A DNA stretch of 44,857 nucleotides from Escherichia phage phiA2-1. This document shows, one piece after another, positions 6,588-40,140 of this stretch. Numbering within the stretch: position 1 is the stretch's first letter; every line of letters starts with the position of its first letter. The notes beneath the pieces were generated by a model. It did no database searches. It saw only the letters and a list, made by a program, of their open reading frames with translations, and had not been told where the DNA came from. Position numbers and translations under genes: made by a program. The stretch lies in sequence record OR861626.1. One strand, written 5' to 3'.

Positions 6588-6650
6588 ATAGCACTTTTTG
6601 CTAAAGCACTTATTCAGCTTTACTGTATAGTTATCTCATCGAAACGAAAT
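6588..6650 (+). promoter_or_regulatory. Conserved promoter-like cassette (ATAGCAC-N4-TTGCTA box, 22-nt spacer, TATAGT, CATCGAAACGAAA leader)
   Basis: ATAGCACTTTTTGCTAAAG at 6588; TATAGT 22 nt after TTGCTA; ATCGAAACGAA at 6638..6648; ATG at 6665. Confidence 0.5.
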
Positions 6651-6664
6651 GAGAGATTAAAGAA

Positions 6665-6913
6665 ATGAATAACGTTAAAAACATCATCAAACTTGCTGCA
6701 GTTCTTGTTGCTTTTTATGCAGTAGTTCAGATTGTTAACCCAACTGGTGAGGCTGATGCCAATAGCAAGGCAAACAAATATACCGTTGAGTTCGCTAAAG
6801 CTGAGCGAGCATGTCAGGAGCTTGTGGGTAGTAAAGTTGACCAAATCATGAAATATGGCAAAGAGGTCTGCAAGGACTCAGCTGCTAAGATTGCAAAAGA
6901 AAACACTAAGTAA
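6665..6913 (+). CDS. Small secreted protein (signal peptide, no lipobox)
   Basis: 82-aa ORF; N-terminal hydrophobic segment KLAAVLVAFYAVVQIV; own promoter-like cassette upstream. Confidence 0.45.
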   Translation: MNNVKNIIKLAAVLVAFYAVVQIVNPTGEADANSKANKYTVEFAKAERACQELVGSKVDQIMKYGKEVCKDSAAKIAKENTK

Positions 6914-6952
6914 TAGAATACATACTCACAAACAATAAGAGGATTAACTAAG

Positions 6953-7267
6953 ATGGCTAAGTTCAAACTTTCACTGGCAGCACTCCCTGACTTCAAGCTT
7001 CCGGTAAAATTCAAGCTGGCTAACGACCAGGATGTAGAGGTTATCTTTACAGTCAAGCATAAGAAAACATCTGAGCTTCAGGAGCTTTTGCAGAAAGAAG
7101 ACTTGAGTACTAAAGAATTGATTATGGCAATCGCCTCTGATTGGGATTTGGAAGAAGAATACAACGAGGATAACGTTAATGAGTTCTCCGACCTGTTCCC
7201 AGCGTCAACGGTTGCACTGACTACCGCTTACATGCAGGCACTGGCAGGCCAGCGGGTAAAAAACTAA
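6953..7267 (+). CDS. Tail assembly chaperone (lambda G-like)
   Basis: 104-aa acidic ORF immediately before tape measure; downstream ORF in the -1 frame. Confidence 0.5.
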   Translation: MAKFKLSLAALPDFKLPVKFKLANDQDVEVIFTVKHKKTSELQELLQKEDLSTKELIMAIASDWDLEEEYNEDNVNEFSDLFPASTVALTTAYMQALAGQRVKN

Positions 7268-7587
7268 AGAGGGCGGTGTATCTACAGTACCAGTCAGATC
7301 CAACTGATGCCGAACTGGAAGCTATTGGGATGCGCCGCTCTGATTACGAAGATGAAGAGCCTGAAGTTTTACACTTCGACGACAACATGATGAAGGCTTG
7401 GGACATTTATTGTTCAATGGCCACGCAATGGAGGGTTGGAGCTAACGGAGCTACAGGGTTAGATTACAACGTGCTAAATTTCCTCTTTAGAGTGTATAAT
7501 GTCTCAGAAGAAGAATTGGTGCTCAGTGATTTACGCATCCTTGAAGCTAAGGCTCTCGAGATGATGGATAATCTGAGAAAAAAATAA
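7258..7587 (+). CDS. Tail assembly chaperone frameshift extension (lambda GT-like; expressed by -1 frameshift from 6953)
   Basis: Slippery heptamer A_AAA_AAC at 7258..7264 just before the G stop; -1 frame is open through to 7587. Confidence 0.4.
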   Translation, partial: KKLKRAVYLQYQSDPTDAELEAIGMRRSDYEDEEPEVLHFDDNMMKAWDIYCSMATQWRVGANGATGLDYNVLNFLFRVYNVSEEELVLSDLRILEAKALEMMDNLRKK

Positions 7588-7608
7588 CCCGCTTCGGCGG
7601 GTTTTCTA
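7588..7608 (+). terminator. Terminator-like hairpin
   Basis: CCCGC-TTCG-GCGGG plus TTTTCTATT; followed by GGAGG RBS of tape measure gene. Confidence 0.4.
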
Positions 7609-7622
7609 TTATGGAGGCTTAG

Positions 7623-10598
7623 ATGGCAACAAATGAATTAGCCGGAATCACACTAGCCGTAGACGTCTCGCAGGTAGACAGAGGTACACAGTCCCTGCGG
7701 AAGTTCAGGCAGGCAAACCAGCAGGCCGCTTCCGGCATTAGTGAGTTCGTCAACGCCGAGCAGGTTGCAAAGAATCAAGCCAGAGACACAGCTCGCGCAC
7801 TGGCTGAACAGCAATCATCTTTGGCTAAATTGCAAACGGCTATTGACCCAACTGCGGCAAAGTTCCGTAAACTCCAGGAGGCTGCTGTAGGTCTTGATAA
7901 GGCTTTCGCGGCTGGAGTAGTTCCTGATGAGGAGTTTTTCCGCTTAGGTGAGGCGCTTGAAACGCAGAACGCAAAACTTGCTCGTTCACGTGCGGCACTA
8001 ACTGAAGAGGGTAGAGCGGCGGCGCAAGCTGCAAAGGATAAGGCAAAGGCAAAGGCTGAAGCGGATAGATTCATTGCATCACTTGAGCGTCAGGCTCAGG
8101 CGGCAACATTGACGCGAGAGGAGTACCTAAAGTTACAAGCGGCCCAGCTTGGCGTAAGTTCTCAGGCGGCGCCTATTATTGACAGAATCGCCGATGCATC
8201 ACGGAAGGCAAACACCCAGCTAATTGCTCAGAGCAAGGCCTTTCAACGCTCTGGCTTAAGCGCAGGTCAATACAAGGCTGCAATCTCTCAATTGCCAGCG
8301 CAGATTACAGATATTGGGACATCACTTGCTGGCGGCATTCCGATTTGGCTTATTGCAATTCAGCAAGGTGGACAAATTAAGGATGCATTTGGAGGTATTG
8401 GTAACACATTTAGTTTTGCGCTTGCTGCTTTAAACCCGTTCAACGTAGCAGTTGGGGTTCTCGGTGGCGCGCTTGTTGCTTTAGGCGTCGGTGCTGCGCA
8501 GGCTGAAAGTGAATTCAGGGCGTTAAACTCCGCCATTGCGTTCTCAAACAACTCCACAATCGCATCAATCTCGCAGGTTAGAGAGTTGGTTAGCTCTGTT
8601 TCTGATGCCACTGGTGCAACCAGAGGACTTGTGACTAGCATCGCAACAAGCCTTGTTGAGCAAGGAAACCTTACGCTAACGCAGATTGACAAGATTACTA
8701 AATCAACAGCCAGATGGGCTCAGTTGACAGGTAAGGATGCAAAGGAAATTACTGGTTACTATAACCAGATTGCGAGCGACCCAATTCAAGGACTTGCTGA
8801 TTTAGACAAGAGGTTTAACTTCCTTACACAGGGGCAGTTAACAACAATTGAAAGATTGAGAGAGACTAGGGGTGAGGTTGAAGCCGTAACTGCTGCTATT
8901 GATATATTTAGCAAATCACAAGAGGCAAACCTTAACGATATTGCAGCCCAGCTTACTCCTCTTGAATTGGCCTGGAATGACTTCAGGAAGTACATATCTG
9001 ATGTATGGGATGCAATTAGTCGCAGAACGGTTGGGGCGCTAAACCTGTTTGTTGACGTAATCGCCGGAACAATTGAGCAAATTAGGGTCTTCATCAACCA
9101 GGGTGATGTGCTGATTGGTGAATTCGTAATTAGCGCAACACAGGCACTGCAGAACATCCCCGGCCTTGATGGTGTTGGTGATGATGTTGTCAAGGGACAG
9201 CAGAAGATTATCGATGCCGCTAAGAAGCAAAACATTGAGCTAGAGAAGTCTATCAAGGAGCGCGATGCCAGAATCAGAGAAGGAGAACTTGGCTACGTTA
9301 CTCGCAGAGAAAATCAGAATACCAATGAGCAGTCAGGCACGGATGAGGAGTTTGCAAAAAGGAAGAAAGCGCTTCAGGATGAACTTGATGCGATCAAGAA
9401 GAGCAGGAAAGAAGAAAATGGTAGGGTTAAAGAGCAAAGAGACCTTACAATTGGTTACGAATCTGGCGTACTTGCACTACAGGCACAACTCAAGGTGCTT
9501 CAGGAAAACAGGGATATTGGCGCAGTAATAAGCAATGAGCGCAAGCAGTATCTTCAGGAGGTTGCAAAATTCCAGATTCTTGAGCAAAGGCAGCGTGATG
9601 GCTCAATAAAAAAAGAGCAAGCAAGACTTCTCATTGAAAAGGATAAAGTTCTTGAGTTGGCCAGGCAGAAGGCTGAGCTAGGTGATCAGATTGTTTTGCA
9701 AGAAAGAGCCAATAAGTTGGCTGAAGATAACCGCAAGAAGATTCTTCAGATTAACAATGAGGCAAGCAATATTGATTTGGGTACTGGATTATCATCTCGT
9801 GAACTGCAAAGAGCCAAAGAGATTCAGGCTCTTCAGTCCAATCAGGTCAATGCTGGTGGCTCTCTTGATGACGTTGATTTTCAGCAGCTACTGGAAGCAA
9901 GACGTAACTTTTATGCCCAGGAGGATGCGCTACGTGAAAACTGGCTCGCTGGTGTTAATCAATCCTTTGCCAATTGGGCTGAGAGCGCGACGGATGCATT
10001 CTCAATTGCTGGAAGTTTAACCACAACAGTCTTTGAAGGCATTACCGACCAGATTACAAACCTCGTAACAACTGGCGAAACAAACTTCAGAGAGTTTACT
10101 GTTAGCATCCTTAAACAGATTGCTAAGATTGCAACTCAGCTTCTTGTTGTAAAGGCCATCGAATCTAGCTTAAGTAGCTTCGGTGGTACTGGTGGCGCTA
10201 TTGGATCGATTGCATCTGGCTTGGGTTTTGCTGGTGGCGGCTACACCGGCAATGGCGGCAAGTACCAACCGGCAGGAACGGTACACCGTGGTGAATTTGT
10301 ATTCACAAAAGAAGCGACGAGCCGAATTGGTGTGAAAAACCTTTACGCGCTAATGAAAGGTTACGCAAACGGCTGCGCTGTAGGTGGTCCTTCAGGCTAT
10401 GCAAATGGGGGTTTGGTTTCTGGTGGAACAGATGTTAATGTTAGCGGAATAACTGTTAACGTTAATGGCGGTGTTGGTAGCGACCCAGAACAAGCCAAAG
10501 CATTGCAGAGTGGCGTTAAGGCAATCGTAGCGGAAGAGATTGCTCAGTCCTTCCAGCAAGGAGGAAAAGCGTATGCCTATCTGAGAGGTTTTAACTAA
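7623..10598 (+). CDS. Tail tape measure protein
   Basis: 991-aa ORF; long Ala/Gln/Lys-rich coiled-coil regions; follows the G/GT chaperone pair. Confidence 0.75.
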   Translation: MATNELAGITLAVDVSQVDRGTQSLRKFRQANQQAASGISEFVNAEQVAKNQARDTARALAEQQSSLAKLQTAIDPTAAKFRKLQEAAVGLDKAFAAGVVPDEEFFRLGEALETQNAKLARSRAALTEEGRAAAQAAKDKAKAKAEADRFIASLERQAQAATLTREEYLKLQAAQLGVSSQAAPIIDRIADASRKANTQLIAQSKAFQRSGLSAGQYKAAISQLPAQITDIGTSLAGGIPIWLIAIQQGGQIKDAFGGIGNTFSFALAALNPFNVAVGVLGGALVALGVGAAQAESEFRALNSAIAFSNNSTIASISQVRELVSSVSDATGATRGLVTSIATSLVEQGNLTLTQIDKITKSTARWAQLTGKDAKEITGYYNQIASDPIQGLADLDKRFNFLTQGQLTTIERLRETRGEVEAVTAAIDIFSKSQEANLNDIAAQLTPLELAWNDFRKYISDVWDAISRRTVGALNLFVDVIAGTIEQIRVFINQGDVLIGEFVISATQALQNIPGLDGVGDDVVKGQQKIIDAAKKQNIELEKSIKERDARIREGELGYVTRRENQNTNEQSGTDEEFAKRKKALQDELDAIKKSRKEENGRVKEQRDLTIGYESGVLALQAQLKVLQENRDIGAVISNERKQYLQEVAKFQILEQRQRDGSIKKEQARLLIEKDKVLELARQKAELGDQIVLQERANKLAEDNRKKILQINNEASNIDLGTGLSSRELQRAKEIQALQSNQVNAGGSLDDVDFQQLLEARRNFYAQEDALRENWLAGVNQSFANWAESATDAFSIAGSLTTTVFEGITDQITNLVTTGETNFREFTVSILKQIAKIATQLLVVKAIESSLSSFGGTGGAIGSIASGLGFAGGGYTGNGGKYQPAGTVHRGEFVFTKEATSRIGVKNLYALMKGYANGCAVGGPSGYANGGLVSGGTDVNVSGITVNVNGGVGSDPEQAKALQSGVKAIVAEEIAQSFQQGGKAYAYLRGFN

Positions 10599-10650
10599 TA
10601 GCACTAAATGGTAAAGCCAAAAGGATTTGGCTTGCTACAATTAGTGAAAA
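10598..10650 (+). promoter_or_regulatory. Promoter-like cassette variant (ATAGCACTAAATGGTAAAG, 22 nt, TACAAT)
   Basis: Box overlaps tape measure stop; TACAAT at 22-nt spacing; hairpin GCCAAA-AGGA-TTTGGC in the spacer. Confidence 0.4.
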
Positions 10651-10669: not shown

Positions 10670-11140
10670 ATGAACTGGAATTATGTTTTTGAGTATAGAG
10701 AGGGTGTTCTTTATTGGAAGGTAAAACCAGCCATACAATACAATATTGGCGATGTTGCTGGTTTCTTTTGTGAAAAGAGAGGTTACATAATCGTTCAATA
10801 CAGGCGTGTAAAGGTAATGGCCCATAGGGTTGTATGGGAAATGTTTAATGGAAGAATAGCTGATGACATGGAAATTGATCACATTGACCACTCTAGAAAA
10901 AACAACAACATATCAAACCTAAGACTGGTAACGAAGAGTGATAACATGAAAAACAAAAGCATGTACTCATCAAATAAAACTGGCGTTGTCGGGGTTAGTT
11001 ACTGCAAAACAAAGAAAAAATTTATATCAAAGATAGGTAAGAGAATTCTATTAACAACAAGCAATTTTGAAGAGGCTGTAAAAGCGAGAAAAATCGCAGA
11101 GATAGCCCTTAATTATCACAAAAATCACGGGAGTAAATAA
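10670..11140 (+). CDS. HNH homing endonuclease (HNH plus AP2-like DNA-binding region)
   Basis: Motifs HRVVWE, IDHIDH, NLRLV...N..N; AT-rich gene inserted between tape measure and tail protein M. Confidence 0.7.
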   Translation: MNWNYVFEYREGVLYWKVKPAIQYNIGDVAGFFCEKRGYIIVQYRRVKVMAHRVVWEMFNGRIADDMEIDHIDHSRKNNNISNLRLVTKSDNMKNKSMYSSNKTGVVGVSYCKTKKKFISKIGKRILLTTSNFEEAVKARKIAEIALNYHKNHGSK

Positions 11141-19689: not shown

Positions 19690-19755
19690 TGTGTTTCGTT
19701 TCGATGGAAAGATAATACCGCATCCTTGCGATAAGTGTTTAGCAATTAGTGCTAT
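19690..19755 (-). promoter_or_regulatory. Promoter-like cassette (minus orientation)
   Basis: Minus strand reads AATAGCACTAATTGCTAAA, 22 nt, TATTAT, then CATCGAAACGAAACACAC leader before the small peptide gene. Confidence 0.5.
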
Positions 19756-20832: not shown

Positions 20833-20856
20833 TTTCGTCTCTCTTTTGTTTTTCAT

Positions 20857-21467
20857 TCCTAAGATTTGAGGAGTTAACTAAGTTCTTTTCCTCAATTTGA
20901 GGAGGAGTTGACAGCACCATTGCCGCCACGCGCCTAAATATACCTAAAGATAGCCAGTTGTCTTTAGCAAATCGTGCTATTTATCGACAATTTCACCATA
21001 AATCACAGTTACACGTAACCGATGTAACTCGATGTATACAATCTCATCCGCGGGAAATGATATACGCGCTGTTACGCCAATTTACGCATTGGTTACATTA
21101 AAATATCTATATATATCAACCTTTTACTCTTATTATTATTATTATATATATTACTGTGTATATCATGTAACTACTTCTATAGAGTGTTCCGGTTATAATT
21201 TTAATATCATGTGGATTTATACAGTATTGCGCGGCAGCTATACCAATGCACCCTCAGCGAGAAACGGCATACACGATATACACGATGTTTACATTGAGCT
21301 ATGGCTGGCTTGAGATGCCAAAAAGCGTAACTAGTGCCAATGCCTACACGAAATTACAAAGATTCACGCGTAAACTTAAATCAACGATTTGCAAAACCAA
21401 TTGGACTGGTTACGGTGCTGAATATATAGTTACCTCATCGAAAGCAATCAACCAGAGAGATATATAA
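20857..21467. promoter_or_regulatory. Large AT-rich divergent control region with (TTA)n and (TA)n tracts
   Basis: 611 nt without a credible ORF; (TTA)5 near 21127..21145; TATATATAT; palindrome CCTCAAATTGAGG; separates minus-strand block from plus-strand early block. Confidence 0.4.
20920..20981 (-). promoter_or_regulatory. Promoter-like cassette (minus orientation) for the 20832 gene
   Basis: Minus strand AATAGCACGATTTGCTAAAG, 22 nt, TATATT. Confidence 0.45.
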
Positions 21468-21665: not shown

Positions 21666-22637
21666 ATGACATTTAAAGTTTACACGAACGACGAACTAAC
21701 CAACGAGGCTTATCACGAAGAGCAAGACCATATCTCTGGCTCATCACTGGCTGAGATTCTCGCAACCTCACCAGCTAAATGGAAATTCAAGCAGCGCAAT
21801 AACTCCAGCGCAGCACTTAAGTTTGGCACTCTGAGTCATACGATGATGCTAGAGCGCGAGGTTTTCGATTCAACCTACATGCGAGCCACTGACTTTGACG
21901 AAGTTGAAGGATTGATCACAAGCCAAACAGCTTTATCAGCAGCACTTAAGAAAGTTGGTGTTTCTGGTACGTCAGGAGAGGGCTATAACGAGCTCGTGGA
22001 GATGATGTATAAGTCTGGCGAGGATTGGCCTGTTAAATGGCTAATTGAGCAGCAGGAGAGCGCTGAGGCATTGATTAGTGGCAAGGAGTTGGTTACTGCG
22101 AAAGATTACGACAAGGTAATCTCAATGCGCGAGGTTCTGACCAATATTCCAGCTTACGATTCGGTCATTAATTCACCAACAGCACAGAAAGAGTTATCCA
22201 TCTTTGGTGAGATTTTAGGTTGTGGCGTAAAGGTTAGGCTTGATCACGTTGATGTTGTTGATGGCGTTGTCTACATTACTGACTATAAAACGACGGCAGA
22301 CGCAAGCCCTCGATGGTTTGGTAAGTCGGCTTATGACCATGGATACCTTTGCAAGATGGCACTTCAACGCGATTTGTTTGTGAATGCATTCAGCGAGAAG
22401 CGCAAGGTTGTGGTTCGCCTCCTGGCGCAGGAGAAAACTGAGCCTTACTTACCTATGTGCTACACGCTTACAGATGAGCAGCTTCGCATTGGGCGCATTC
22501 AGTATCTTGAAGCACTGGCTACATACAAACAGTGCAAGGAACTTGATGTGTGGCCTGGTTACAGTAATGGGATTACAGAGCAAGATTTAATGATTCCTGA
22601 GTGGGTAAGTAAAAAGTATCAAGAATTGCTGAAATAG
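21666..22637 (+). CDS. PD-(D/E)XK-family exonuclease (recombination exonuclease, putative)
   Basis: RLDHVDVVDGVVYITDYKT contains a D...D/E-x-K nuclease signature; adjacent to Erf-family gene. Confidence 0.55.
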   Translation: MTFKVYTNDELTNEAYHEEQDHISGSSLAEILATSPAKWKFKQRNNSSAALKFGTLSHTMMLEREVFDSTYMRATDFDEVEGLITSQTALSAALKKVGVSGTSGEGYNELVEMMYKSGEDWPVKWLIEQQESAEALISGKELVTAKDYDKVISMREVLTNIPAYDSVINSPTAQKELSIFGEILGCGVKVRLDHVDVVDGVVYITDYKTTADASPRWFGKSAYDHGYLCKMALQRDLFVNAFSEKRKVVVRLLAQEKTEPYLPMCYTLTDEQLRIGRIQYLEALATYKQCKELDVWPGYSNGITEQDLMIPEWVSKKYQELLK

Positions 22638-22700
22638 CACTAATTGCTAAAGAAAAAGTTAACTGGTGGGGTATCATTACCTCACCAAAACGAAAGAGAG
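22634..22700 (+). promoter_or_regulatory. Promoter-like cassette
   Basis: ATAGCACTAATTGCTAAAG, 22 nt, TATCAT, then CCAAAACGAAAGAGAG leader; box overlaps upstream stop TAG. Confidence 0.5.
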
Positions 22701-24949: not shown

Positions 24950-25012
24950 TGTAAGGTCTCCATTTGTAAAATAGCACAATTTGCTAAAACTAATTCTACC
25001 ATCTTTAATGCA

Positions 25013-25036
25013 ATAAAAAACCTCCCGAAGGAGGTT
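25013..25036 (-). terminator. Rho-independent terminator (minus strand) after the primase-like gene
   Basis: ACCTCC-CGAA-GGAGGT hairpin with A-run on plus strand (U-run on minus). Confidence 0.45.
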
Positions 25037-25958: not shown

Positions 25959-26434
25959 TTGCTTAACCCGTGATTTTCGTGAAAGTTGTATTTTCTCTCT
26001 GCTTCAATTCTTACTTTATACGCCTGCTCTGGAGTATCGAAGTTCCCAAGGTGTAGCTGCTTGCCGTCAACCTTGATGTGAGCCTTAAATTTTCCGTGAT
26101 TTAGCTTTACCACTCCACAATAACCAGTTGTTGATAAAACGCTAAGATTGCAATTTCTTGAGTTACCTTGATTTGTTGTTACTCTTAGGTTTTCTATTCT
26201 GTTATCTAATTTGTTATGGTTTATATGATCAATGTAGTCGCCATTTTGAAGTTCTCCATTAAACATCTCCCACACAACTCTATGTACATAAGTCCTAAGG
26301 CCATTAACAGACACTTTGTAATAGCCAGATGTAGATAGTGAGTTGCACTCATCGCCAACCTTAACACGTCTTGCAGTGCTAATCTTCCAATGCAATTTGC
26401 CATCTACATAGTAAAAATAATCATGCCAGTTCAT
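25955..26434 (-). CDS. HNH homing endonuclease (HNH plus AP2-like region)
   Basis: Motifs HRVVWEMFNG, IDHINHN, NLRVT; third paralog of the same family. Confidence 0.7.
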   Translation of the reverse strand: MNWHDYFYYVDGKLHWKISTARRVKVGDECNSLSTSGYYKVSVNGLRTYVHRVVWEMFNGELQNGDYIDHINHNKLDNRIENLRVTTNQGNSRNCNLSVLSTTGYCGVVKLNHGKFKAHIKVDGKQLHLGNFDTPEQAYKVRIEAERKYNFHENHGLSK

Positions 26435-26449: not shown

Positions 26450-26480
26450 AAAAAAAGGATGTACCGATTATGGCACATCC
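26450..26480 (-). terminator. Rho-independent terminator (minus strand)
   Basis: GGATGTGCC-ATAATC-GGTACATCC hairpin followed by U7 on the minus strand. Confidence 0.45.
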
Positions 26481-26486
26481 AATTAT

Positions 26487-26960
26487 TTAATCTTTAGCTT
26501 TTCGTGCTGCCTCGTTAGCAATCTTATTCTTGCGCCATGGTCGACATGATGGCTTAGTTGCTAGTTCGGCTTCGGTAACTACGCGAAGCATATGGCGTTT
26601 CTTGCATCGAAGTGTTAGCGGCTTTCCATTCCCGTCGAATTGCAAGTCAGGTCGGCAGAATGTAGCTCGAAAACCTTCCTTATTTCGCTTGTACGCATTG
26701 TGAGCTTTCTGCGCACCTCGAGCTGAAATCATGCCGCGATCAAACCACTGCTCTACAGTCTGGTGAGATACATTTAACTGTTTTGCGATGTTCGCCTTTG
26801 TGCCGTAGAAATCAAGAACCATCTCCAGACGTGCCCTGAGGCCAGCCCTCACCTCATCCTTTAATACGTAGTAACCTGAAGGTCGTTTGCGCTGCTTCTT
26901 GTCTTGTGTGCGTACCGTTCCGTTATTACCGTTAATTGTTCTCTTGTCAATTTCACACAT
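26487..26960 (-). CDS. Putative HTH DNA-binding protein
   Basis: 157 aa, basic; HTH-like segment TKANIAKQLNVSHQTVEQWFDRG. Confidence 0.4.
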   Translation of the reverse strand: MCEIDKRTINGNNGTVRTQDKKQRKRPSGYYVLKDEVRAGLRARLEMVLDFYGTKANIAKQLNVSHQTVEQWFDRGMISARGAQKAHNAYKRNKEGFRATFCRPDLQFDGNGKPLTLRCKKRHMLRVVTEAELATKPSCRPWRKNKIANEAARKAKD

Positions 26961-26972
26961 CTCATTACCTCA

Positions 26973-27040
26973 ATAGCACTTTTTGTTAAACAATAGGTTC
27001 GATAATTGTTATTATACAGCAATGCAACGAACTAACAAAC
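26973..27040 (+). promoter_or_regulatory. Promoter-like cassette
   Basis: ATAGCACTTTTTGTTAAA, ~21-22 nt, TATTAT/ATTATA, upstream of helicase ATG 27057. Confidence 0.45.
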
Positions 27041-27056
27041 TGTCAGGATATTTAAA

Positions 27057-29051: not shown

Positions 29052-29467
29052 AAATTACAGATAAGGTTGATTACCTTGAGTTCTACGGAGGCGCAGTTGA
29101 GTCATGCCCAAAGGAAGACGACGAACAAATCTTTTGCTCTGACTGGGTTAAGTATAACTATCCGCAAGTTGTTTACTGGCACACAGTTAATGAATCAATG
29201 AAGAGTATTGGTCAGGCAAGGAAAGACCAGGCTAAAGGACTCCTTAAAGGAGTATCAGACTGCTTATTCTTAATACCTGAGTCATTGCGAGGTAGTTATC
29301 CATTTGGAGCCATAGAATTGAAGAGGGCAGGTAAAACACAAGCTAGTCCGGTAAGTGACGAGCAGAAGTCATTCCTAAAAAGTGTAAGAGAATCAGGAGG
29401 TTTCGCCGCTGTAGCCTATGGCAGGGAGGGTTTTCTTGCTGCATTCGAAGAGATGATCAGGAAATAG
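29048..29467 (+). CDS. VRR-NUC-like nuclease (PD-(D/E)XK fold, putative)
   Basis: 139 aa; GVSDCLFLIPE...GAIELKR segment; overlaps helicase stop. Confidence 0.5.
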   Translation: MKITDKVDYLEFYGGAVESCPKEDDEQIFCSDWVKYNYPQVVYWHTVNESMKSIGQARKDQAKGLLKGVSDCLFLIPESLRGSYPFGAIELKRAGKTQASPVSDEQKSFLKSVRESGGFAAVAYGREGFLAAFEEMIRK

Positions 29468-29529
29468 CACGAATCGCTAAAGACGAATCGGTGAGTTGGT
29501 GTATTATCAACTCATCGAAACGAAACACA
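29464..29529 (+). promoter_or_regulatory. Promoter-like cassette
   Basis: ATAGCACGAATCGCTAAAG, 22 nt, TATTAT, ATCGAAACGAAACACAC leader identical to the 19690 copy. Confidence 0.5.
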
Positions 29530-29961: not shown

Positions 29962-30149
29962 TTGGAATCTGCGTGAAAACAAATGGAAGGTTTACACTTC
30001 TTGAGGATTACGAAGTTAACTTTAATTCAGGTGGCGAAATAATAGTAAAAGGAGACGATGAATTACATTGGTTCCTTAGTTATCAAGGTGATGGCTACTA
30101 CGTGTGTATAGATTGTCACGGAAAAGAGGTAAGTTTCTTGGTTGAATAG
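29958..30149 (+). CDS. Hypothetical small protein (member of a three-copy paralog family)
   Basis: 63 aa; shares C-V...G.G.Y...DG.Y pattern with ORFs at 32292 and 32492. Confidence 0.4.
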   Translation: MIGICVKTNGRFTLLEDYEVNFNSGGEIIVKGDDELHWFLSYQGDGYYVCIDCHGKEVSFLVE

Positions 30150-30210
30150 CACTTTTTGTTAAAAAATAAATCCATGGATGGATTATATTAAAAACATCAA
30201 CAACGCAGAG
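30146..30210 (+). promoter_or_regulatory. Promoter-like cassette
   Basis: ATAGCACTTTTTGTTAAAA, 22 nt, TATATT; box overlaps upstream stop TAG. Confidence 0.45.
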
Positions 30211-30919: not shown

Positions 30920-32056
30920 ATGGCAGTAGCAAAAATTAGCAACGAGCAGTTGACAGAAGAATTGAGAAATGGCCTAACAAACAAGGCGATTGCGGAGAAG
31001 TATGGCATGAACATTCGCAATGTTGAGCTTCGTCGCAGCAAGTTGGCCAAGAGTGGACTATTCGGGCACGGAAATGAAGGTATCAAGAAGCTAGTGCCTG
31101 ATGGCTATATGGTAAAAGGCACTTCGACAATGATTGATGCGGAAGGGAGAGAGAAGCTGCGCTGGGTTAAGACTTCCATTGATTCAGAAAAACAAGAAGA
31201 GATGCTTCAGCAGATTGTTCAGGCCCTTACTGATGAGGTTCCTCGCGAGGCTCCGAAGCCGCTCAGTGAATCAAGCTATGAGGACACTTTAAGTCTCTAC
31301 CCTGTATTTGATATGCACATTGGCGCGATGGCTCACCATGCGGAGTGCGGAGAAAACTACAGCACAGAAATTGCTGAGCGAGTACTTAACCAGTACTTTG
31401 ATTATGCGGTCGCAAAAGCTCCAAATTCATCGAAGGCCGTGTTACTAATTGGGGGTGACTTCTTGCATTCAGATAGTCTGGAGGCTGTGACACCAACAAG
31501 CAGGCACTCATTAGACCAAGATAGTCGATATCATAAGTTAGTCTATGTTGCTGTGCGATCAACTCGCAGAGCTATCAGCAGGATGCTTGATAAGCACAAG
31601 GAGATTGAGGTGCAAATCATCCCAGGCAACCACGATTTAAGTGGTATGATTTGGCTTCGAGCCGCTATGGCCGCTTTTTACATGGATGAGCCGCGCGTAA
31701 ATGTTGATGCTTCACCAGCAGCGCTTCACGTTACACATTTTGGCAAGACGCTTTTGGGTTATTGTCATGGTCATGAGTTGCGTAAGCCTGACACTCGTCT
31801 TTCAACACTTGCGCGAGACCACCGCAAAGCATTTGGTAGTGCTGAGTATGTTTATACACACAGCGGCCATTACCACCATCAGACAGTTACTGAGGGTAAT
31901 TTAGGTATTGATGAGTCGCACGGACAGTTGGGTTGTAAGGATGCGTACAGCGCAAACGGAGGGTATCGTTCTTATCGTCAGGCTTCAGTAATCATCTATA
32001 GCCCAGAGTATGGTGAAGTTGGTCGATTCACTTGCCGTCCTGAAATGTTTAAGTAA
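30920..32056 (+). CDS. Metallophosphoesterase-domain protein with N-terminal HTH-like region
   Basis: Track ORF from 30914; ATG 30920 after AAGGA; GDFLH, GNHD, GHELR, GHYHH motifs; N-terminal LTNKAIAEKYGMNIRNVELRR. Confidence 0.55.
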   Translation: MAVAKISNEQLTEELRNGLTNKAIAEKYGMNIRNVELRRSKLAKSGLFGHGNEGIKKLVPDGYMVKGTSTMIDAEGREKLRWVKTSIDSEKQEEMLQQIVQALTDEVPREAPKPLSESSYEDTLSLYPVFDMHIGAMAHHAECGENYSTEIAERVLNQYFDYAVAKAPNSSKAVLLIGGDFLHSDSLEAVTPTSRHSLDQDSRYHKLVYVAVRSTRRAISRMLDKHKEIEVQIIPGNHDLSGMIWLRAAMAAFYMDEPRVNVDASPAALHVTHFGKTLLGYCHGHELRKPDTRLSTLARDHRKAFGSAEYVYTHSGHYHHQTVTEGNLGIDESHGQLGCKDAYSANGGYRSYRQASVIIYSPEYGEVGRFTCRPEMFK

Positions 32057-32116
32057 TAGCACTTTTTGTCAAAACATAGCGACTAAAAGTCGCTATTATT
32101 GTTTTATCGAAACGAG
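32056..32116 (+). promoter_or_regulatory. Promoter-like cassette containing a perfect 9-bp-arm palindrome in the spacer
   Basis: ATAGCACTTTTTGTCAAAA, 22 nt (includes ATAGCGACT-AAA-AGTCGCTAT), TATTAT, ATCGAAACGAG leader. Confidence 0.5.
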
Positions 32117-34226: not shown

Positions 34227-35810
34227 TCACCCCAACAGTCGTGGATTAATGTAAATCTTATCGCCAATCAGGCACGTATAGTTTTTCTCATCAAGCATCG
34301 GAACCAAGTGGTCTTTTATGCGAGTCATGACTCCAGCCTGAGCTTCGAAAGGCTTAACCTTGCGCGCTGCTTCATATAATGAGCGAATACCAACAACGCC
34401 CTTCCCATTCTTGCCCTGCTTAATCAGGATATCAACCAGCTTGTTCATCTCCGCATTGTCACCAGCATGACCAGCAGCACTAGCAGATGACAAATACGTC
34501 TTGCTTAGTTCGTGGAAAATCATAACCGCTTCCTGCATTGTCTCAAGTTCAATCTCTCTGGACTTCTGAGGACTCGACCCGGCTGGCGCGAACCAGTTGC
34601 GAATAACATGCAGAACAGAAGCGATACGAATTGCTTGCTTATCAAACTTACCTAGCGCACCACGTAACATTGTGTGGGAATACTTACCGCCATCACCAAG
34701 ATGCGGCTCCATCTCCTGACGAGCGCGGTTGAGGTAACGCATGGATGACGCACTTACAGTCAGTTTCACTTCAACTTCATTCATAATCTCATGAACGAGC
34801 CGGAAGTAATCAGCCTTCAACCCACCATCAATAGCCTCATAGGTTGAATCTCCATTCTCATCAACAAACACACGGTCGCCAAGGAATGACTTTTCACGCA
34901 CCAGAAGAAAACGTTCAGATACACCAATACCACGCGCACCAGCATTCATAATAGCATTGATTGTTTCATCCTGAGCAATTACAGAAATACATCCCATAGC
35001 CACAAAACTCATGTTGTTTTCTGCGTTAGCGCGCGCAATAGATACGTTACCAGCATCCCACGCCTTAAGCACTAGCTCGCTGTTCGTTTTCTTTGAGCCA
35101 TCTCCGTATGTCATGCCAAGCAGTGAGTTTACGCTTGTTGCCTCATCCGAGATTACAGCAAAGTTTCCCTGTCGGTTGTTTATTCGCGCAAGACCTTCCG
35201 GCGTAGTATCGGAGACCGGGAATACTATATCGCATAGCTTCTCGAGCTTTTCCTCTAAATCCTCCTTCTCTTCAAATAGTGATGCCATCTCAGAAGGTGA
35301 CTTCTCCTGCTTCATCTCTTTTGATAGAGCGGATAGCTTAGCCATAATCTTTTTGCGGTCACGCTTGCGCACTTCATTCAACCGCTCAGTCTCAGCGATC
35401 ATTGGCGCAATAGATAGTGAGTTGATGGCAGATTTACCAGTTGAGGGAGGCTGGCTTGTTACAACGTACAAAGATGTTGGCTGCTGAGTTCCATGATATT
35501 CAACCGTAAAGCGCCCAAGCATTGCAGCAGACACGCAACCCAGAAAGTGCATGTAAGCTGAAGACTCTGGAAACTGAACTGAACGAGCAATATTGGCAGA
35601 TAGCTTACCAACGATATCAATGTCATTACCTAATGATATGACAGGATACTTGTCATTACCTGCATCAATCTCGACAGGTGTTTTCCAGAATGATTGTGAT
35701 TGTCGATAACCATTTGCATTAATGGCCACGCGCAGGGGTGGGAGGTTGTCATTGGCGGCAATTGCCATAACCTGTTCAACAGATAGTTTATCTTCGTTGA
35801 AATCAAACAT
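34227..35810 (-). CDS. P-loop NTPase, putative replicative helicase
   Basis: 527 aa; Walker A-like SQPPSTGKSA; N- and C-termini repeated in the truncated paralog at 38698. Confidence 0.45.
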   Translation of the reverse strand: MFDFNEDKLSVEQVMAIAANDNLPPLRVAINANGYRQSQSFWKTPVEIDAGNDKYPVISLGNDIDIVGKLSANIARSVQFPESSAYMHFLGCVSAAMLGRFTVEYHGTQQPTSLYVVTSQPPSTGKSAINSLSIAPMIAETERLNEVRKRDRKKIMAKLSALSKEMKQEKSPSEMASLFEEKEDLEEKLEKLCDIVFPVSDTTPEGLARINNRQGNFAVISDEATSVNSLLGMTYGDGSKKTNSELVLKAWDAGNVSIARANAENNMSFVAMGCISVIAQDETINAIMNAGARGIGVSERFLLVREKSFLGDRVFVDENGDSTYEAIDGGLKADYFRLVHEIMNEVEVKLTVSASSMRYLNRARQEMEPHLGDGGKYSHTMLRGALGKFDKQAIRIASVLHVIRNWFAPAGSSPQKSREIELETMQEAVMIFHELSKTYLSSASAAGHAGDNAEMNKLVDILIKQGKNGKGVVGIRSLYEAARKVKPFEAQAGVMTRIKDHLVPMLDEKNYTCLIGDKIYINPRLLG

Positions 35811-35829: not shown

Positions 35830-35889
35830 TCTGAGCGGCCATTATATCAACAGCCGCTTATTATGCATTATCAATTCGTGCTAATTATC
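35830..35889 (-). promoter_or_regulatory. Degenerate promoter-like cassette (minus orientation)
   Basis: Minus strand AATTAGCACGAATTGATA, 22 nt, TATAAT, upstream of ATG 35810. Confidence 0.3.
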
Positions 35890-36412: not shown

Positions 36413-36475
36413 ATTTCGTTTCGATGAAGTAACTATACAACAAAAGCCCCGAATGGCTTTAGCAATTAGTGCTAT
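36413..36475 (-). promoter_or_regulatory. Promoter-like cassette (minus orientation)
   Basis: Minus strand AATAGCACTAATTGCTAAAG, 22 nt, TATAGT, CATCGAAACGAA leader. Confidence 0.5.
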
Positions 36476-37449: not shown

Positions 37450-37521
37450 TCTTATGTACTTCGTTTCGATGAGATGATTATGGTCTCCTTGCCAATGAAT
37501 GTCTTTAGCAAAAAGTGCTAT
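37450..37521 (-). promoter_or_regulatory. Promoter-like cassette (minus orientation)
   Basis: Minus strand AATAGCACTTTTTGCTAAAG, ~24 nt, CATAAT, CATCGAAACGAAG leader. Confidence 0.45.
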
Positions 37522-39120: not shown

Positions 39121-39205
39121 CTACCATACCACCTACGGCACAATGAGGGAGAGGTTGAGGCTGCAATAGAGTTCTATTGGAAAGCTAAATTACTCCTGAA
39201 CGGAA

Positions 39206-39260
39206 AATGGCACGAATTGTCAAACCTTCCTCAAGGCCATTTGATATAGTGGCCTTATTG
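39206..39260 (+). promoter_or_regulatory. Promoter-like cassette variant
   Basis: AATGGCACGAATTGTCAAAC, 22 nt, TATAGT; inverted repeat AAGGCCA/TGGCCTT spans the -10. Confidence 0.45.
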
Positions 39261-39282
39261 AAGCAAAGTTAGAGAGGATAGA

Positions 39283-39513
39283 ATGGAGAGGAATAAATAT
39301 GAAAGAGAAATTATTGGGCTTAATGGCGAGCGTGCTATTATTGATGTGTATCGCACGCTATCAGCATTCGACGTTACAGACCCAGCGTGCCAACATGCTA
39401 TCAAAAAGCTATTGTGTATGGGGCTGCGAGGCCACAAAGACATTATAACAGACCTTGATGACGCAATAGACTCACTAAACAAGATGAAAACTTACCTGGA
39501 GCAAACGAAATGA
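39283..39513 (+). CDS. Hypothetical protein
   Basis: 76-aa ORF. Confidence 0.35.
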   Translation: MERNKYEREIIGLNGERAIIDVYRTLSAFDVTDPACQHAIKKLLCMGLRGHKDIITDLDDAIDSLNKMKTYLEQTK

Positions 39514-39743
39514 TTACAATTAACCTGTCAGACAAGCAAGCCACAATTCTTAAGCAGCTAATCTCAAGTCAGCCAATGCAGTGCTCGGCGGTCGAGTTCT
39601 CAGAGATGGTCAAAGAGGTTTGTACTCAAATCAACAATCAGCAGTTCGATGTGTCAGACTTCGAGTCATCACGCCAGTACGAATCTCTAAGCATTAAGAA
39701 TGCTGGATACCTCGATAACTGGGATAAGGCGACTAAGAAATGA
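39510..39743 (+). CDS. Hypothetical protein
   Basis: 77-aa ORF overlapping neighbours. Confidence 0.35.
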   Translation: MITINLSDKQATILKQLISSQPMQCSAVEFSEMVKEVCTQINNQQFDVSDFESSRQYESLSIKNAGYLDNWDKATKK

Positions 39744-39928
39744 AAGATATTAAAACTACAGATAGAAGCGATGACGCCATGACGTTCCAGGTGAGCAGCC
39801 AGACAGCAAAAGAGCACATGAACAAACTGGAGTCATTTGGGATTGACGTTTCTGGATTTGGTGTTAATTGCACAAGTGCAGCTAATACAACCAAGAGTTG
39901 GAGATTTGATAAGGAGTTCAATAAATGA
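39740..39928 (+). CDS. Hypothetical protein
   Basis: 62-aa ORF. Confidence 0.35.
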   Translation: MKDIKTTDRSDDAMTFQVSSQTAKEHMNKLESFGIDVSGFGVNCTSAANTTKSWRFDKEFNK

Positions 39929-40074
39929 TTTACATCCACACGTACTACACTGGCAAATTCAACAGCGTTAAGCACGTTTCGGTGCATCAGAAGAAGAGCG
40001 ACGCAATTAAGCAATATGAGGTTCTTGGCGGTGTAGTTATTGAGGTAATGAAAGCCAGATTGATCCTGAGCTAA
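39925..40074 (+). CDS. Small ORF (49 aa), not in ORF track
   Basis: AAGGAG RBS; ATG overlaps upstream stop (ATGA). Confidence 0.3.
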   Translation: MIYIHTYYTGKFNSVKHVSVHQKKSDAIKQYEVLGGVVIEVMKARLILS

Positions 40075-40075
40075 A

Positions 40076-40140
40076 AATAGCACGAATTGCTAAACAATCG
40101 CCGGAGCAATCCGGCATAATTACCACTTCGAAACGACAGG
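40076..40140 (+). promoter_or_regulatory. Promoter-like cassette
   Basis: ATAGCACGAATTGCTAAAC, 22 nt (contains CCGGAGCAATCCGG), CATAAT, CTTCGAAACGACA leader. Confidence 0.45.

What the first reader, a model, noticed from the sequence alone, without database searches (positions are those of the whole stretch)
6588..40140. About 15 copies of a conserved promoter-like cassette with a near-palindromic box at a fixed 22-nt distance from the -10
A cassette recurs in front of non-structural genes, oriented with the downstream gene. It consists of AATAGCAC-N4-TTG(C/T)TAAA (an imperfect palindrome TAGCA-N5-TGCTA), a 22-nt spacer, a TAT(A/T)AT-like hexamer, and often a CATCGAAACGAA leader. Plus-strand copies begin at about 6588, 10598, 22634, 26973, 29464, 30146, 32056, 39206 and 40076; minus-strand copies at about 19755, 20981, 36475, 37521, with a degenerate one near 35889 and an ambiguous one at 24971. 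A 22-nt gap is too long for a sigma70 -35/-10 pair. It puts the palindrome centre near -42, where dimeric class II activators bind, which suggests a phage-specific middle-promoter class dependent on a phage-encoded factor. Several spacers carry their own inverted repeats (32076..32096, 10616..10631, 39228..39253). The box often overlaps the stop codon of the upstream gene.
Basis: partly seen in the sequence, partly recalled or inferred. Interest (0 to 1): 0.85.

Follow-up and report, generated by a model that had tools for sequence, protein, structure and literature searches.

The report
Phage promoters built on host marbox
A T1-like coliphage carries 16-17 copies of a promoter cassette whose upstream box matches the binding site of the E. 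coli stress and antibiotic-resistance activators MarA/SoxS/Rob, so this phage family probably depends on a host regulator for most of its transcription.

Summary
The cassette is real. There are 16 strong copies plus one weaker, against about 0.01 expected by chance. Each has a 20-bp box (ATAGCAC-N3-TTGYTAAA, not N4), then 18 nt, a -10 hexamer, and a C-A start 7 nt later. Most lie 72-84 nt before a start codon.

The window is a Drexlerviridae (T1/Rtp-like) coliphage. The repeat was already published for phage TLS, and noted there for T1, Rtp and Rogue1, with its function left open (PMC11447400).

My reading is that the box is a near-consensus marbox. It is asymmetric, forward-oriented, centred near -41 and replaces the -35. 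This is the architecture of class II MarA/SoxS/Rob promoters, and the box-to--10 spacing is the same 18 nt as in E. coli micF. A matrix built only from phage boxes finds the true micF, mar and fumC marboxes.

No phage examined encodes a MarA-like protein. The conserved phage regulator is Cro-like, has a variable recognition helix, and is absent from an unrelated podovirus (C130_2) that has the cassette; T4-like phages carry it too (their genomes were not scanned for the regulator).

Host-factor dependence is inferred, not shown; I put it at about 0.65. The phage-encoded dimeric factor is not supported.

The parts
6588..6638 (+). Cassette 1: box 6588-6607 (29.7 bits), 18 nt, TATAGT 6626-6631, predicted +1 A 6638, leader ATCGAAACGAA. 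It precedes the 82-aa gene at 6665, the tail chaperones and the tape-measure gene.
   Evidence: PHROG
10598..10648 (+). Cassette 2: box 10598-10617 (25.8 bits), TACAAT 10636-10641, +1 about 10648. It precedes the HNH endonuclease gene (10670) and the minor tail genes. The first base of the box is the last base of the tape-measure stop codon.
19705..19755 (-). Cassette 3: box 19755-19736 (30.2 bits), TATTAT 19717-19712, +1 about 19705, leader ATCGAAACGAA. A terminator-like hairpin (19733-19716) is nested in the spacer. It precedes small ORFs (19671, 19565).
20931..20980 (-). Cassette 4: box 20980-20961 (30.2 bits), TATATT 20942-20937. It precedes the anti-repressor-like gene 20167-20856, with a longer 5' UTR than the other copies.
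22634..22684 (+). Cassette 5: box 22634-22653 (31.1 bits), TATCAT 22672-22677, +1 about 22684. A 7-bp stem flanks the -10. It precedes the Erf recombinase and SSB genes. The TAG inside the box is the stop codon of the exonuclease VIII-like gene.
24971..25020 (+). Atypical copy: box 24971-24990 (26.3 bits) followed by a poor hexamer (TGCAAT) and a bidirectional terminator, with no ORF downstream. It is reversed relative to the tail-fibre gene (start 24961, - strand) and lies just downstream of TGgTAGAAT on the - strand. The same layout occurs in T1 (34902) and Rtp (33762).
26973..27022 (+). Cassette 7: box 26973-26992 (27.2 bits), 17 nt, TATTAT 27010-27015, +1 about 27022. It precedes the helicase and VRR-NUC genes. 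The box lies in the 5' UTR of the divergent regulator gene.
27011..27038 (-). Sigma70-like promoter of the regulator gene (TTGTTA-N16-TATAAT). Its -10 overlaps the -10 of cassette 7, and its transcript must read through the box. T1 has TTGAAT-N17-TATAAT at the same place.
26487..26960 (-). Conserved phage regulator (T1 gp23 / Rtp52 family): a Cro/XRE-type single HTH with a conserved basic N-terminal arm. It is associated with the system, but my evidence argues it does not read the box.
26460..26510 (-). Weak 17th cassette: box 26510-26491 (15.4 bits, inside the 3' end of the regulator gene), CATAAT 26472-26467 in the loop of the regulator's terminator hairpin. It lies 76 nt before the HNH/primase operon start (26434). 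Conserved in Rtp and T1.
29464..29514 (+). Cassette 8: box 29464-29483 (27.6 bits), TATTAT 29502-29507, +1 about 29514, leader ATCGAAACGAA. A 9-bp stem flanks the -10. The TAG in the box is the stop codon of the VRR-NUC gene. It precedes small genes starting at 29546.
30146..30196 (+). Cassette 9: box 30146-30165 (26.5 bits), TATATT 30184-30189, +1 about 30196. It precedes small genes, including the phrog_2817 protein, and the metallophosphoesterase gene.
32056..32106 (+). Cassette 10: box 32056-32075 (24.3 bits, TTGTCAAA variant as in micF). The terminator hairpin 32076-32096 fills the spacer. TATTAT 32094-32099, +1 about 32106. It precedes small genes and the lysis cassette.
35834..35884 (-). 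Cassette 11 (degenerate box, 20.6 bits): box 35884-35865, but a perfect extended -10 (TGaTATAAT 35846-35841). It precedes the DUF3987 helicase gene 34227-35810. The same degenerate form occurs in Rtp (43850).
36425..36475 (-). Cassette 12: box 36475-36456 (31.1 bits), TATAGT 36437-36432, +1 about 36425, leader ATCGAAACGAA. The TAA at box positions 15-17 is the stop codon of the upstream ORF.
37470..37521 (-). Cassette 13: box 37521-37502 (29.7 bits), 19 nt, CATAAT 37482-37477, +1 about 37470, leader ATCGAAACGAA. It precedes a run of five small genes.
39207..39257 (+). Cassette 14: box 39207-39226 (ATGGCAC...TTGTCAAA, 22.8 bits), extended -10 TGaTATAGT 39245-39250. A GGCCA/TGGCC stem flanks the -10. 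It precedes small genes starting at 39283.
40077..40127 (+). Cassette 15: box 40077-40096 (29.6 bits), hairpin CCGGA/TCCGG in the spacer, CATAAT 40115-40120. It precedes the gene at 40159.
40648..40698 (+). It precedes small genes and, further on, the terminase genes.

Best explanation
Each cassette is a sigma70 promoter that has no -35 element. In its place, at about -50 to -31, sits a forward-oriented, near-consensus marbox. This is the architecture of class II promoters of the E. coli mar/sox/rob regulon. I propose that a host monomeric AraC-family activator binds the box, contacts RNA polymerase in place of the missing -35 contact, and starts transcription at the conserved A, 7 nt after the TATAGT-like hexamer. 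Rob is the most likely activator because it is constitutive and abundant; MarA or SoxS would serve under stress, and RamA in Klebsiella or Salmonella. The phage, its whole family, and transferred modules in two other phage lineages would then get most of their transcription through a host stress regulator rather than through sigma70 -35 recognition or a phage-encoded factor.

Shown: the sequence match, asymmetry, orientation, spacing, lack of a -35, conservation across phage lineages, and absence of a phage MarA homologue.

Inferred: the transcription start site, actual binding by Rob/MarA/SoxS, and dependence on the activator.
For: (1) Consensus match. The published marbox is GCAHWWWWTGYYAAA (PMC6900184). 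Of 559 pooled distinct cassettes, 240 have 0 mismatches to it and 248 have 1. Against AYnGCACnnWnnRYYAAAYn (recalled from Martin 1999, which I could not read), 460 of 559 have at most 1 mismatch. Salmonella ChIP-seq sites for MarA/SoxS/Rob/RamA include GCACTATTTGCTAAA, GCATTTTTTGCTAAA and CCACGATTTGCTAAA (PMC10268841), which are essentially the phage core.

(2) Geometry. E. coli micF reads ACAGCACTGAATGTCAAAAC, then 18 nt, then TAGAAT, then the annotated +1. The phage has the same 18 nt in 13 of 16 copies in the window, 13 of 17 in T1, 16 of 19 in Rtp and 7 of 9 in Vc1. In the literature, forward-oriented sites cluster at -41, and class II promoters have a canonical -10 and start site but no recognisable -35 (micF about -41). 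The phage has AAAACn where a -35 would be, a TATAGT-like -10, and C-A 7 nt after it.

(3) Cross-prediction. A matrix built only from phage boxes returns the true micF (14.3 bits), mar (18.2 bits, in the known reverse orientation) and fumC (12.0 bits) marboxes as the single top hit in each locus.

(4) Asymmetry. The variation that breaks the palindrome follows the marbox consensus: position 14 is C or T, matching Y.

(5) No phage-encoded reader. There is no MarA/SoxS homologue in six phage genomes. The Cro-like regulator has a variable recognition helix. It is absent from podovirus C130_2, which has 7 cassettes. That phage shares only replication proteins, the endolysin and one small protein with the window phage.

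(6) Selection in unrelated genomes. In T4-like phages Lw1, RB43, CfP1 and a 178-kb contig, the box is 20/20 identical while flanks are 79-87% identical.

(7) Specificity. Lambda and T7 have no site of at least 15 bits, whereas T1-like genomes have 14-23.

(8) Need. Canonical sigma70 matches are at chance level here, 42 against 45 expected. Only 3 were found in TLS (PMC11447400).
Against: There is no experimental evidence of any kind. Start sites are predicted, not measured.

In unstressed cells MarA and SoxS are scarce and Rob is largely aggregated (PMC10268841). It is not obvious that a phage with a very short latent period could rely on them, unless basal Rob is enough for such strong sites or infection itself activates them.

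To my knowledge, rob, marA or soxS mutants have never been reported as T1-resistant. Redundancy among the three could hide this.

The cassette persists in a phage recorded on Vibrio cholerae (Vc1). A 95%-identical relative of C130_2 is recorded on Stutzerimonas. If those host labels are right and those hosts lack a marbox-binding protein, a host factor of this family cannot be the whole answer.

The matrix did not recover the weaker inaA and nfo marboxes.

The TAGCA-N5-TGCTA pseudo-palindrome centred at -42 is physically compatible with a dimeric HTH protein.

The small shared protein phrog_2817 was not excluded as a factor.
Confidence: 0.65

Rival explanations
1. A phage-encoded activator reads the box. 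The conserved Cro-like regulator (26487-26960, T1 gp23 family) would be made first from its own sigma70 promoter. It would then bind TAGCA-N5-TGCTA as a dimer centred at -42, activating all cassettes as lambda cI does at PRM, while shutting off its own promoter through the box in its 5' UTR.
For: The regulator gene has one of the few good sigma70-like promoters: TTGTTA-N16-TATAAT here and TTGAAT-N17-TATAAT in T1. A box lies 11-13 nt upstream of its start codon, on the opposite strand, in the window, T1, Rtp and Vc1, a layout suited to autoregulation. The regulator is present in about 824 Drexlerviridae records. The box travels with the phage lineage into Vc1, which is recorded on Vibrio. A 5-N5-5 inverted repeat suits a dimeric HTH protein.
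Against: The regulator has a single Cro/XRE-type HTH. Its predicted recognition helix (residues 66-75) is its most variable part, with entropy 2-3.7 bits, whereas the box is invariant across the same phages. Box conservation is asymmetric. C130_2 has 7 full cassettes but no regulator homologue: the profile search finds nothing at E<=10, against 1e-65 for the T1 control. T4-like phages keep the box under apparent selection. A match to the host marbox at about 21 bits of specified positions would have to be coincidence.
Confidence: 0.12
2. The box is recognised by RNA polymerase itself, as an unusual upstream or UP-like element combined with a partial extended -10. The cassettes would then be activator-independent constitutive promoters.
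For: G at -14 occurs in 74% of cassettes and a full TGn in 36%. The degenerate-box copy at 35884 has a perfect TGnTATAAT. The TLS authors raised the UP-element idea.
Against: UP elements are A/T tracts. Here G4, C5, C7 and G13 are 95-100% invariant. No known sigma70 or alpha-CTD specificity matches GCAC...TGCTAAA. The element coincides exactly with a known activator site.
Confidence: 0.08
3. The boxes are negative elements: stoperator-like roadblocks or insulators bound by a phage or host protein to block read-through between transcription units.
For: The sites are asymmetric and oriented with transcription, as L5 stoperators are, and the TLS authors suggested this. Reversed boxes lie just downstream of sigma70-like promoters at the regulator gene and the tail-fibre gene. 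Terminator hairpins are nested in many cassettes.
Against: The fixed 18-nt distance to a -10 hexamer, the conserved C-A start and the 72-84 nt distance to start codons are promoter properties. This is a virulent phage with no lysogeny module. MarA-family proteins can also repress at misplaced sites, so the reversed copies are compatible with the main explanation.
Confidence: 0.05

Closest known systems
Class II MarA/SoxS/Rob(/RamA)-dependent promoters of Enterobacteriaceae (micF, fumC, lpxC P2, lpxL P1, rfaY P1)
   Same: A 20-bp asymmetric marbox in forward orientation overlaps the -35 and is centred near -41. The spacing to the -10 is 18 nt, as in micF. There is no recognisable -35, and the -10 and start site are canonical.
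   Different: The phage boxes lie much closer to consensus (20-31 bits on the phage-derived matrix) than the host sites (12-18 bits). They occur 14-23 times in a 45-50 kb virulent phage genome instead of being scattered through a stress regulon. They carry nested terminators or flanking hairpins and a conserved ATCGAAACGA leader. Binding and dependence on the activator are untested.
The 21-nt direct repeats of phage TLS (aaATAGCACnnnTTGnTAAAA), also noted in T1, Rtp and Rogue1 (PMC11447400)
   Same: The consensus is the same, including the AAA/TTT/GAA variants in the middle. The orientation with transcription, the intergenic location and the roughly 76-nt distance to start codons also match. 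The window's element belongs to this repeat family.
   Different: That paper left the function open (stoperator, enhancer-binding site or UP element). It did not report the fixed 18-nt link to a -10, the marbox identity, or occurrence outside T1-like phages.
Lambda cI activation of PRM from OR2 (class II activation by a phage HTH dimer centred at -42)
   Same: The site has the same position relative to the start. A divergent, overlapping promoter pair at the regulator gene could act as a switch.
   Different: The lambda operator is symmetric and is read by a conserved recognition helix. Here the site is asymmetric, and the phage HTH protein has a variable recognition helix and is dispensable in other lineages.
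T4 middle promoters (MotA box plus AsiA sigma appropriation)
   Same: An activator box replaces the -35 in a phage promoter class. The TGCT core is superficially similar to the MotA box (from my own knowledge).
   Different: The MotA box is centred at about -30, 11-13 bp from the -10 (from my own knowledge). Here TGCTAAA ends 20 nt before the hexamer. No MotA or AsiA homologue appeared in the proteins I scanned. The factor proposed here belongs to the host.

Membership tests
Class II mar/sox/rob promoter | A 20-bp asymmetric marbox matching GCAHWWWWTGYYAAA / AYnGCACnnWnnRYYAAAYn | tested here: met
   All 16 strong window boxes fit. Of the pooled cassettes, 488 of 559 have at most 1 mismatch to the 15-mer consensus. 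Asymmetry is as expected. The phage-derived matrix retrieves the micF, mar and fumC marboxes.
Class II mar/sox/rob promoter | Forward orientation, overlapping the -35, centred about -41 | tested here: met
   16 of 17 copies are forward relative to a -10. The box spans about -50 to -31 using the conserved C-A as +1. The 18-nt spacing is the same as in micF. The start site is predicted, not measured.
Class II mar/sox/rob promoter | No recognisable -35 hexamer; canonical -10 and start site | tested here: met
   The hexamer at the -35 position is AAAACn. The -10 is TATAGT, then TATTAT, then CATAAT in order of frequency. A occurs at +1 in 76%. Compare PMC10268841.
Class II mar/sox/rob promoter | Bound by MarA, SoxS or Rob, with transcription dependent on the activator | not testable with these tools
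   This needs EMSA or footprinting, in vitro transcription, and infection of a delta-rob delta-marA delta-soxS host.
T1-like phage direct repeat (TLS DR) | Consensus aaATAGCACnnnTTGnTAAAA, oriented with transcription, about 76 nt upstream of start codons, many copies per genome | tested here: met
   (72-84 nt in 15 of 17 copies), compared with PMC11447400. The window is a Drexlerviridae genome.
Sigma54 promoter | Invariant GG-N10-GC (-24/-12) spacing with the GG doublet (from my own knowledge) | tested here: not met
   The box has AG-N8-GC, and position 3 is A in 97%. A sigma70-type -10 sits at a fixed distance downstream.
Operator for a dimeric phage HTH activator (lambda PRM type) | Symmetric site read by a conserved recognition helix, co-occurring with the regulator gene | tested here: not met
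   Conservation is asymmetric. The recognition helix is variable. The cassette is present without the regulator in C130_2.
T4 MotA-dependent middle promoter | MotA box centred at -30, 11-13 bp from the -10, with MotA and AsiA encoded by the phage (from my own knowledge) | tested here: not met
   The TGCTAAA end lies 20 nt from the hexamer. No such proteins appeared among the scanned ORFs. Not every ORF was scanned.
L5-type stoperator | Asymmetric repressor sites oriented with transcription that act as roadblocks, with no fixed relation to promoter elements, in a temperate phage (from my own knowledge) | tested here: not met
   The orientation criterion is met. However, the sites have a fixed 18-nt relation to a -10 and a start site, and no lysogeny module is seen.

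The most novel reading that the evidence does not exclude
A whole family of virulent enterobacterial phages (Drexlerviridae, more than 800 sequenced genomes) has handed nearly all its promoter recognition to the host's MarA/SoxS/Rob antibiotic-resistance and stress activators. So have transferable promoter modules in Hungariovirus podoviruses and T4-like Pseudotevenvirus. Phage gene expression would then be wired to the host's mar/sox/rob state. Hosts lacking rob, marA and soxS would be non-permissive. Mar-constitutive multidrug-resistant strains, and inducers such as bile salts, salicylate, paraquat or dipyridyl, would boost infection.
Probability: 0.5. Interest if true: 0.85.

Novelty: new member of a known kind. 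Interest (0 to 1): 0.74.

Why it matters
T1-like phages are classic, extremely common, used in therapy cocktails and notorious as fermentation contaminants. Yet their transcription is essentially unexplained. Annotators find almost no sigma70 promoters, and the repeat was published in 2024 with its function open.

Reading it as a class II marbox promoter gives a concrete hypothesis that can be tested immediately. It names the proteins (Rob, MarA, SoxS, RamA), the mutants and the inducers to try.

If correct, this would be a rare case of a virulent phage relying on a host transcription activator for most of its genes. It would link phage susceptibility to the mar/sox/rob antibiotic-resistance circuitry, which bears on phage-antibiotic synergy and on resistance trade-offs. 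It would also provide a set of very strong natural marbox promoters. The presence of the cassette in three unrelated phage lineages suggests it is a portable promoter module for Enterobacteriaceae.

Tried and rejected
- The literal N4 pattern fails. N3 is the correct gap.
- Sigma54 resemblance (TGGCAC-N5-TTGC): rejected. The spacing is 2 bp too short and the GG doublet is missing.
- T4 MotA box: rejected on spacing.
- A phage-encoded MarA-like protein: tblastn with MarA and SoxS finds nothing in six phage genomes.
- The regulator as a hidden two-HTH protein: rejected. The AlphaFold model (pLDDT 86) matches single-HTH Cro proteins.
- UP element: rejected because of invariant G and C positions.
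- The phage matrix did not find the known weak inaA and nfo marboxes.
- My first fumC coordinates were wrong and I fetched the region again.
- The Rtp genome paper (PMC1367250), Martin et al. 1999, and the T1 genome paper were not available. I therefore could not check whether the T1 or Rtp papers noted the repeat. The 'AYnGCAC...' 20-mer and the '18-19 bp' rule rest on my memory plus the micF measurement.
- One literature search was wasted by a loose min_terms setting.
- The small shared protein phrog_2817 gave no structural or family hit and was not pursued.
- I did not download the complete T4-like genomes to prove the regulator is absent. All significant hits of the regulator family listed were in 44-53 kb Drexlerviridae records.


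Full report
1. Observation

The pattern as literally written is not enriched: 4 matches against 8.6 expected. Reading the claimed coordinates shows the gap is N3, not N4. ATAGCACNNNTTGYTAAA has 12 exact matches and 21 with up to 3 mismatches, against 3.7 expected.

Aligned on the box, 16 copies share one architecture. A 20-bp box is followed by 18 nt (17 or 19 nt in two copies), then a TATAGT/TATTAT/TACAAT-like hexamer. About 6 nt later, in 5 copies exactly and 4 approximately, comes CATCGAAACGAA.

A weight matrix from these sites finds 16 sites of at least 20 bits, against 0.01 in simulations. That test is circular for the window. The same matrix, however, finds 23 sites of at least 15 bits in T1, 21 in Rtp and 14 in Vc1, and none in lambda or T7.

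A 17th, weaker copy at 26510(-) has correct geometry before the HNH/primase operon. The box lies 72-84 nt from the start codon in 15 of 17 copies. The box overlaps the upstream stop codon in at least 7 cases. Copies precede tail and lysis operons as well as non-structural genes.

2. What the genome is, and prior art

The window is a Drexlerviridae coliphage. It is nearest to TR1, CY1 and Rao1 at 86-87% identity and related to Rtp, ACG-M12 and T1.

The repeat has been published. The TLS reannotation (PMC11447400) describes 21 copies of aaATAGCACnnnTTGnTAAAA, oriented with transcription and about 76 nt upstream of start codons. It states that similar repeats occur in T1, Rtp and Rogue1. It found only three sigma70-like promoters and left the function open (stoperators, enhancer-binding sites or UP elements).

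Other T1-like genome papers ran only generic sigma70 predictors. No held paper links the marbox or MarA/SoxS/Rob to phage promoters. The original T1 and Rtp genome papers are not held.

3. Anatomy from 557-559 pooled distinct cassettes

The pool came from the window, T1, Rtp, Vc1, TR1, and IMG/VR and related phage loci held at the time.

- The box logo is aAATAGCAC[G/T][A/T][A/T]TTG[C/T]TAAA[a/c].
- The hexamer at the -35 position is AAAACn, so there is no -35.
- G at -14 occurs in 74%.
- The -10 is TATAGT, then TATTAT, then CATAAT in order of frequency.
- C-A occurs 7 nt after the hexamer (A in 76%), which is the expected +1.
- The leader is A-rich: ATCgAAAcnAAA.
- The box therefore spans about -50 to -31, with its centre at -40.5.
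- Canonical sigma70 matches in 19-39 kb are at chance level: 42 against 45 expected.

4. Identity of the box

The published marbox is 5'-GCAHWWWWTGYYAAA-3'. Class II promoters carry it in forward orientation overlapping the -35 (PMC6900184; PMC12052159). The micF site is at about -41 (PMC8811837).

In Salmonella ChIP-seq, bound sites include GCACTATTTGCTAAA, GCATTTTTTGCTAAA and CCACGATTTGCTAAA. Forward sites cluster at -41. Class II promoters have a canonical -10 and start site but no recognisable -35 (PMC10268841).

I measured E. coli micF directly: ACAGCACTGAATGTCAAAAC, then 18 nt, then TAGAAT, then the annotated +1. The box-to-hexamer spacing is identical to the phage cassette. The mar marbox is ATGCCACGTTTTGCTAAATC.

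The phage-only matrix returns the micF, mar (in the reverse orientation, as known) and fumC marboxes as the single top hit in each locus. It misses the weak inaA and nfo sites.

Phage boxes score 20-31 bits and host sites 12-18 bits. By my own calculation, the phage consensus matches about 21 bits of specified marbox positions. Chance agreement is about 1e-5 even after allowing for alignment registers.

5. Asymmetric monomer site or palindrome?

G4 is 99% conserved, whereas its mirror position 14 is C 69% / T 28%, exactly the marbox 'Y'. C7 (95%) mirrors T11. A17 and A18 (100% and 93%) mirror A1 and A0. All copies keep one orientation relative to the -10. This fits a monomeric two-HTH reader.

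6. Who binds?

MarA and SoxS queries find nothing in the window, T1, Rtp, Vc1, C130_2 or NJS1.

The only conserved phage DNA-binding candidate is 26487-26960, the T1 gp23 / Rtp52 family (about 824 phage records).

- It gives weak Cro/YdaS Pfam hits and weak Cro hits in the PDB sequence search.
- Its model (pLDDT 86) best matches the single-HTH Cro proteins of Xfaso1, N15 and P22. It shows no AraC-type fold.
- Its predicted recognition helix (residues 66-75) is the most variable segment. The N-terminal arm and C-terminal motifs are conserved. This is hard to reconcile with reading an invariant 19-bp box.

Three comparisons are decisive.

- Escherichia phage C130_2 (Hungariovirus; P22-like virion genes; 55% GC) has 7 strong cassettes with 18-nt spacing, but no regulator homologue (profile E<=10 gives none; the T1 control gives 1e-65). 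Its primase and helicase genes are directly adjacent. It shares with the window only exonuclease VIII, Erf, primase, helicase, VRR-NUC, the endolysin and a small protein of unknown function. That small protein lies downstream of a cassette in both phages.
- T4-like Pseudotevenvirus phages (Lw1, RB43, Citrobacter phage CfP1 and a 178-kb contig) carry one or two copies. The box is 20/20 identical while the flanks are 79-87% identical. The hairpin arms changed in a compensatory way, GGGGTA/TACCCC against GGGATA/TATCCC.
- Klebsiella Webervirus NJS1 (50% GC) also has the cassettes.

Three unrelated phage lineages of Enterobacteriaceae share the element. That points to a host factor.

7. Mechanism proposed

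Rob, MarA or SoxS (RamA in other genera) binds the box and recruits sigma70 holoenzyme, substituting for the missing -35 contact. This follows the published micF-Rob/SoxS-RNAP structures as summarised. Rob is favoured because it is constitutive and binds with higher affinity.

At the regulator-helicase region, the regulator's sigma70-like promoter (27038-27011) shares its -10 with the helicase cassette and must transcribe through the box. Occupancy of the box should therefore switch polymerase from the regulator gene to the helicase operon. What the regulator itself does remains unknown.

8. Caveats

There is no experimental evidence. Rob is mostly aggregated and MarA and SoxS are scarce without stress. 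Vc1 is recorded on Vibrio and a close relative of C130_2 on Stutzerimonas; whether those labels are right, and whether those hosts have a marbox-binding protein, is unknown. A dimeric reader of the pseudo-palindrome is not physically excluded.

9. Secondary features

Of cassettes with a good -10, 53% have a stem of at least 5 bp joining a G-rich spacer arm to the C-rich discriminator. The figure is 29% when discriminators are permuted among cassettes. A hairpin wholly inside the spacer occurs in 40%, against 18% in shuffled spacers. The pooled cassettes are phylogenetically related, which inflates these contrasts.

The inner hairpins followed by TATTATTGTTTT look like terminators of the upstream gene nested in the promoter. 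They coincide with terminators annotated in T1. The flanking class lies entirely upstream of +1, and its role is unexplained.

10. Verdict

The repeat is already described in the family. Its best reading is a phage-borne class II marbox promoter using a host activator (about 0.65). This appears not to have been proposed in the literature I could search, and it is directly testable.

Noticed in passing
window 26961-27056 (also T1 L008:36432-36524, Rtp L009:35282-35382): The regulator gene (- strand) and the helicase gene (+ strand) have overlapping divergent promoters that share one -10 region (TATAAT / TATTAT). The box sits in the regulator's 5' UTR, 11-13 nt from its start codon. The layout looks like a genetic switch.
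   Followed up: partly
window 24971-24990; T1 L008:34902; Rtp L009:33762: A strong box lies in reverse orientation immediately upstream of the tail-fibre gene and just downstream of an extended -10 (TGgTAGAAT) on the gene's strand. No usable -10 or ORF follows it on its own strand. It is conserved in three phages. T1 also has reversed boxes at 15086 and 18850 before the major head and tape-measure chaperone genes. These may be repressive sites.
   Followed up: partly
window 22654-22683, 29484-29513, 39227-39256; pooled cassettes: Covarying inverted repeats flank the -10 hexamer, with the 3' arm forming the discriminator. They occur in 53% of cassettes, against 29% in permuted controls. The hairpin lies wholly upstream of the predicted +1, so it can exist only in read-through RNA or as a DNA structure. 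Its function is unknown.
   Followed up: partly
window 32076-32096, 19716-19733, 36443-36460, 26457-26480: Terminator-like hairpins of the upstream gene are nested inside the promoter spacer, with the -10 and downstream T-rich stretch serving as the T-tract. At 26457-26480 the -10 lies in the hairpin loop. The result is very compact terminator-promoter modules.
   Followed up: partly
window 6637-6648, 19694-19706, 29513-29524, 36414-36426, 37459-37471: A conserved leader, (C)ATCGAAACGAA, starts at the predicted +1. It is retained even in the copies found in T4-like phages and C130_2. No explanation was found; it could be the initial transcribed sequence, a translation signal or a processing signal.
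   Followed up: no
L135:1700-2440 (Lw1), L137 (RB43), L138 (CfP1), L057:11440-11540: T1-type cassettes occur in T4-like Pseudotevenvirus genomes, next to a small gene (Lw1 gp016) homologous to T1-like phage genes. In RB43 and CfP1 the second box precedes a different gene (an endonuclease V-like gene). The promoter module appears to move between phage families.
   Followed up: yes
L133 (Escherichia phage C130_2, NC_048067): This phage is a mosaic. It combines P22-like podovirus virion genes with a T1-like replication/recombination module (helicase 44% identical, exonuclease VIII 41%) and 7 T1-type cassettes, at 55% GC. The database lists a 95%-identical phage as infecting Stutzerimonas.
   Followed up: partly
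window 10670-11140 and 25955-26434: Two HNH endonuclease genes each lie directly downstream of a cassette. TR1 and Rtp carry HNH genes at other cassette-adjacent positions, which suggests that homing endonucleases insert next to these promoters.
   Followed up: no
phage database records: About 20 records named 'Campylobacter phage' (for example A110b and A120) are T1-like genomes close to coliphages and carry the regulator. The host labels look doubtful. The same caution applies to Vibrio phage Vc1, whose regulator is closest to that of Citrobacter phage HCF1.
   Followed up: no
window 35841-35884 (Rtp L009:43850): The one copy with a degenerate box (TTAGCAC...TTGATAAT) has a perfect extended -10 (TGaTATAAT), as if the core promoter compensates for a weaker activator site. 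The same pairing is conserved in Rtp.
   Followed up: no
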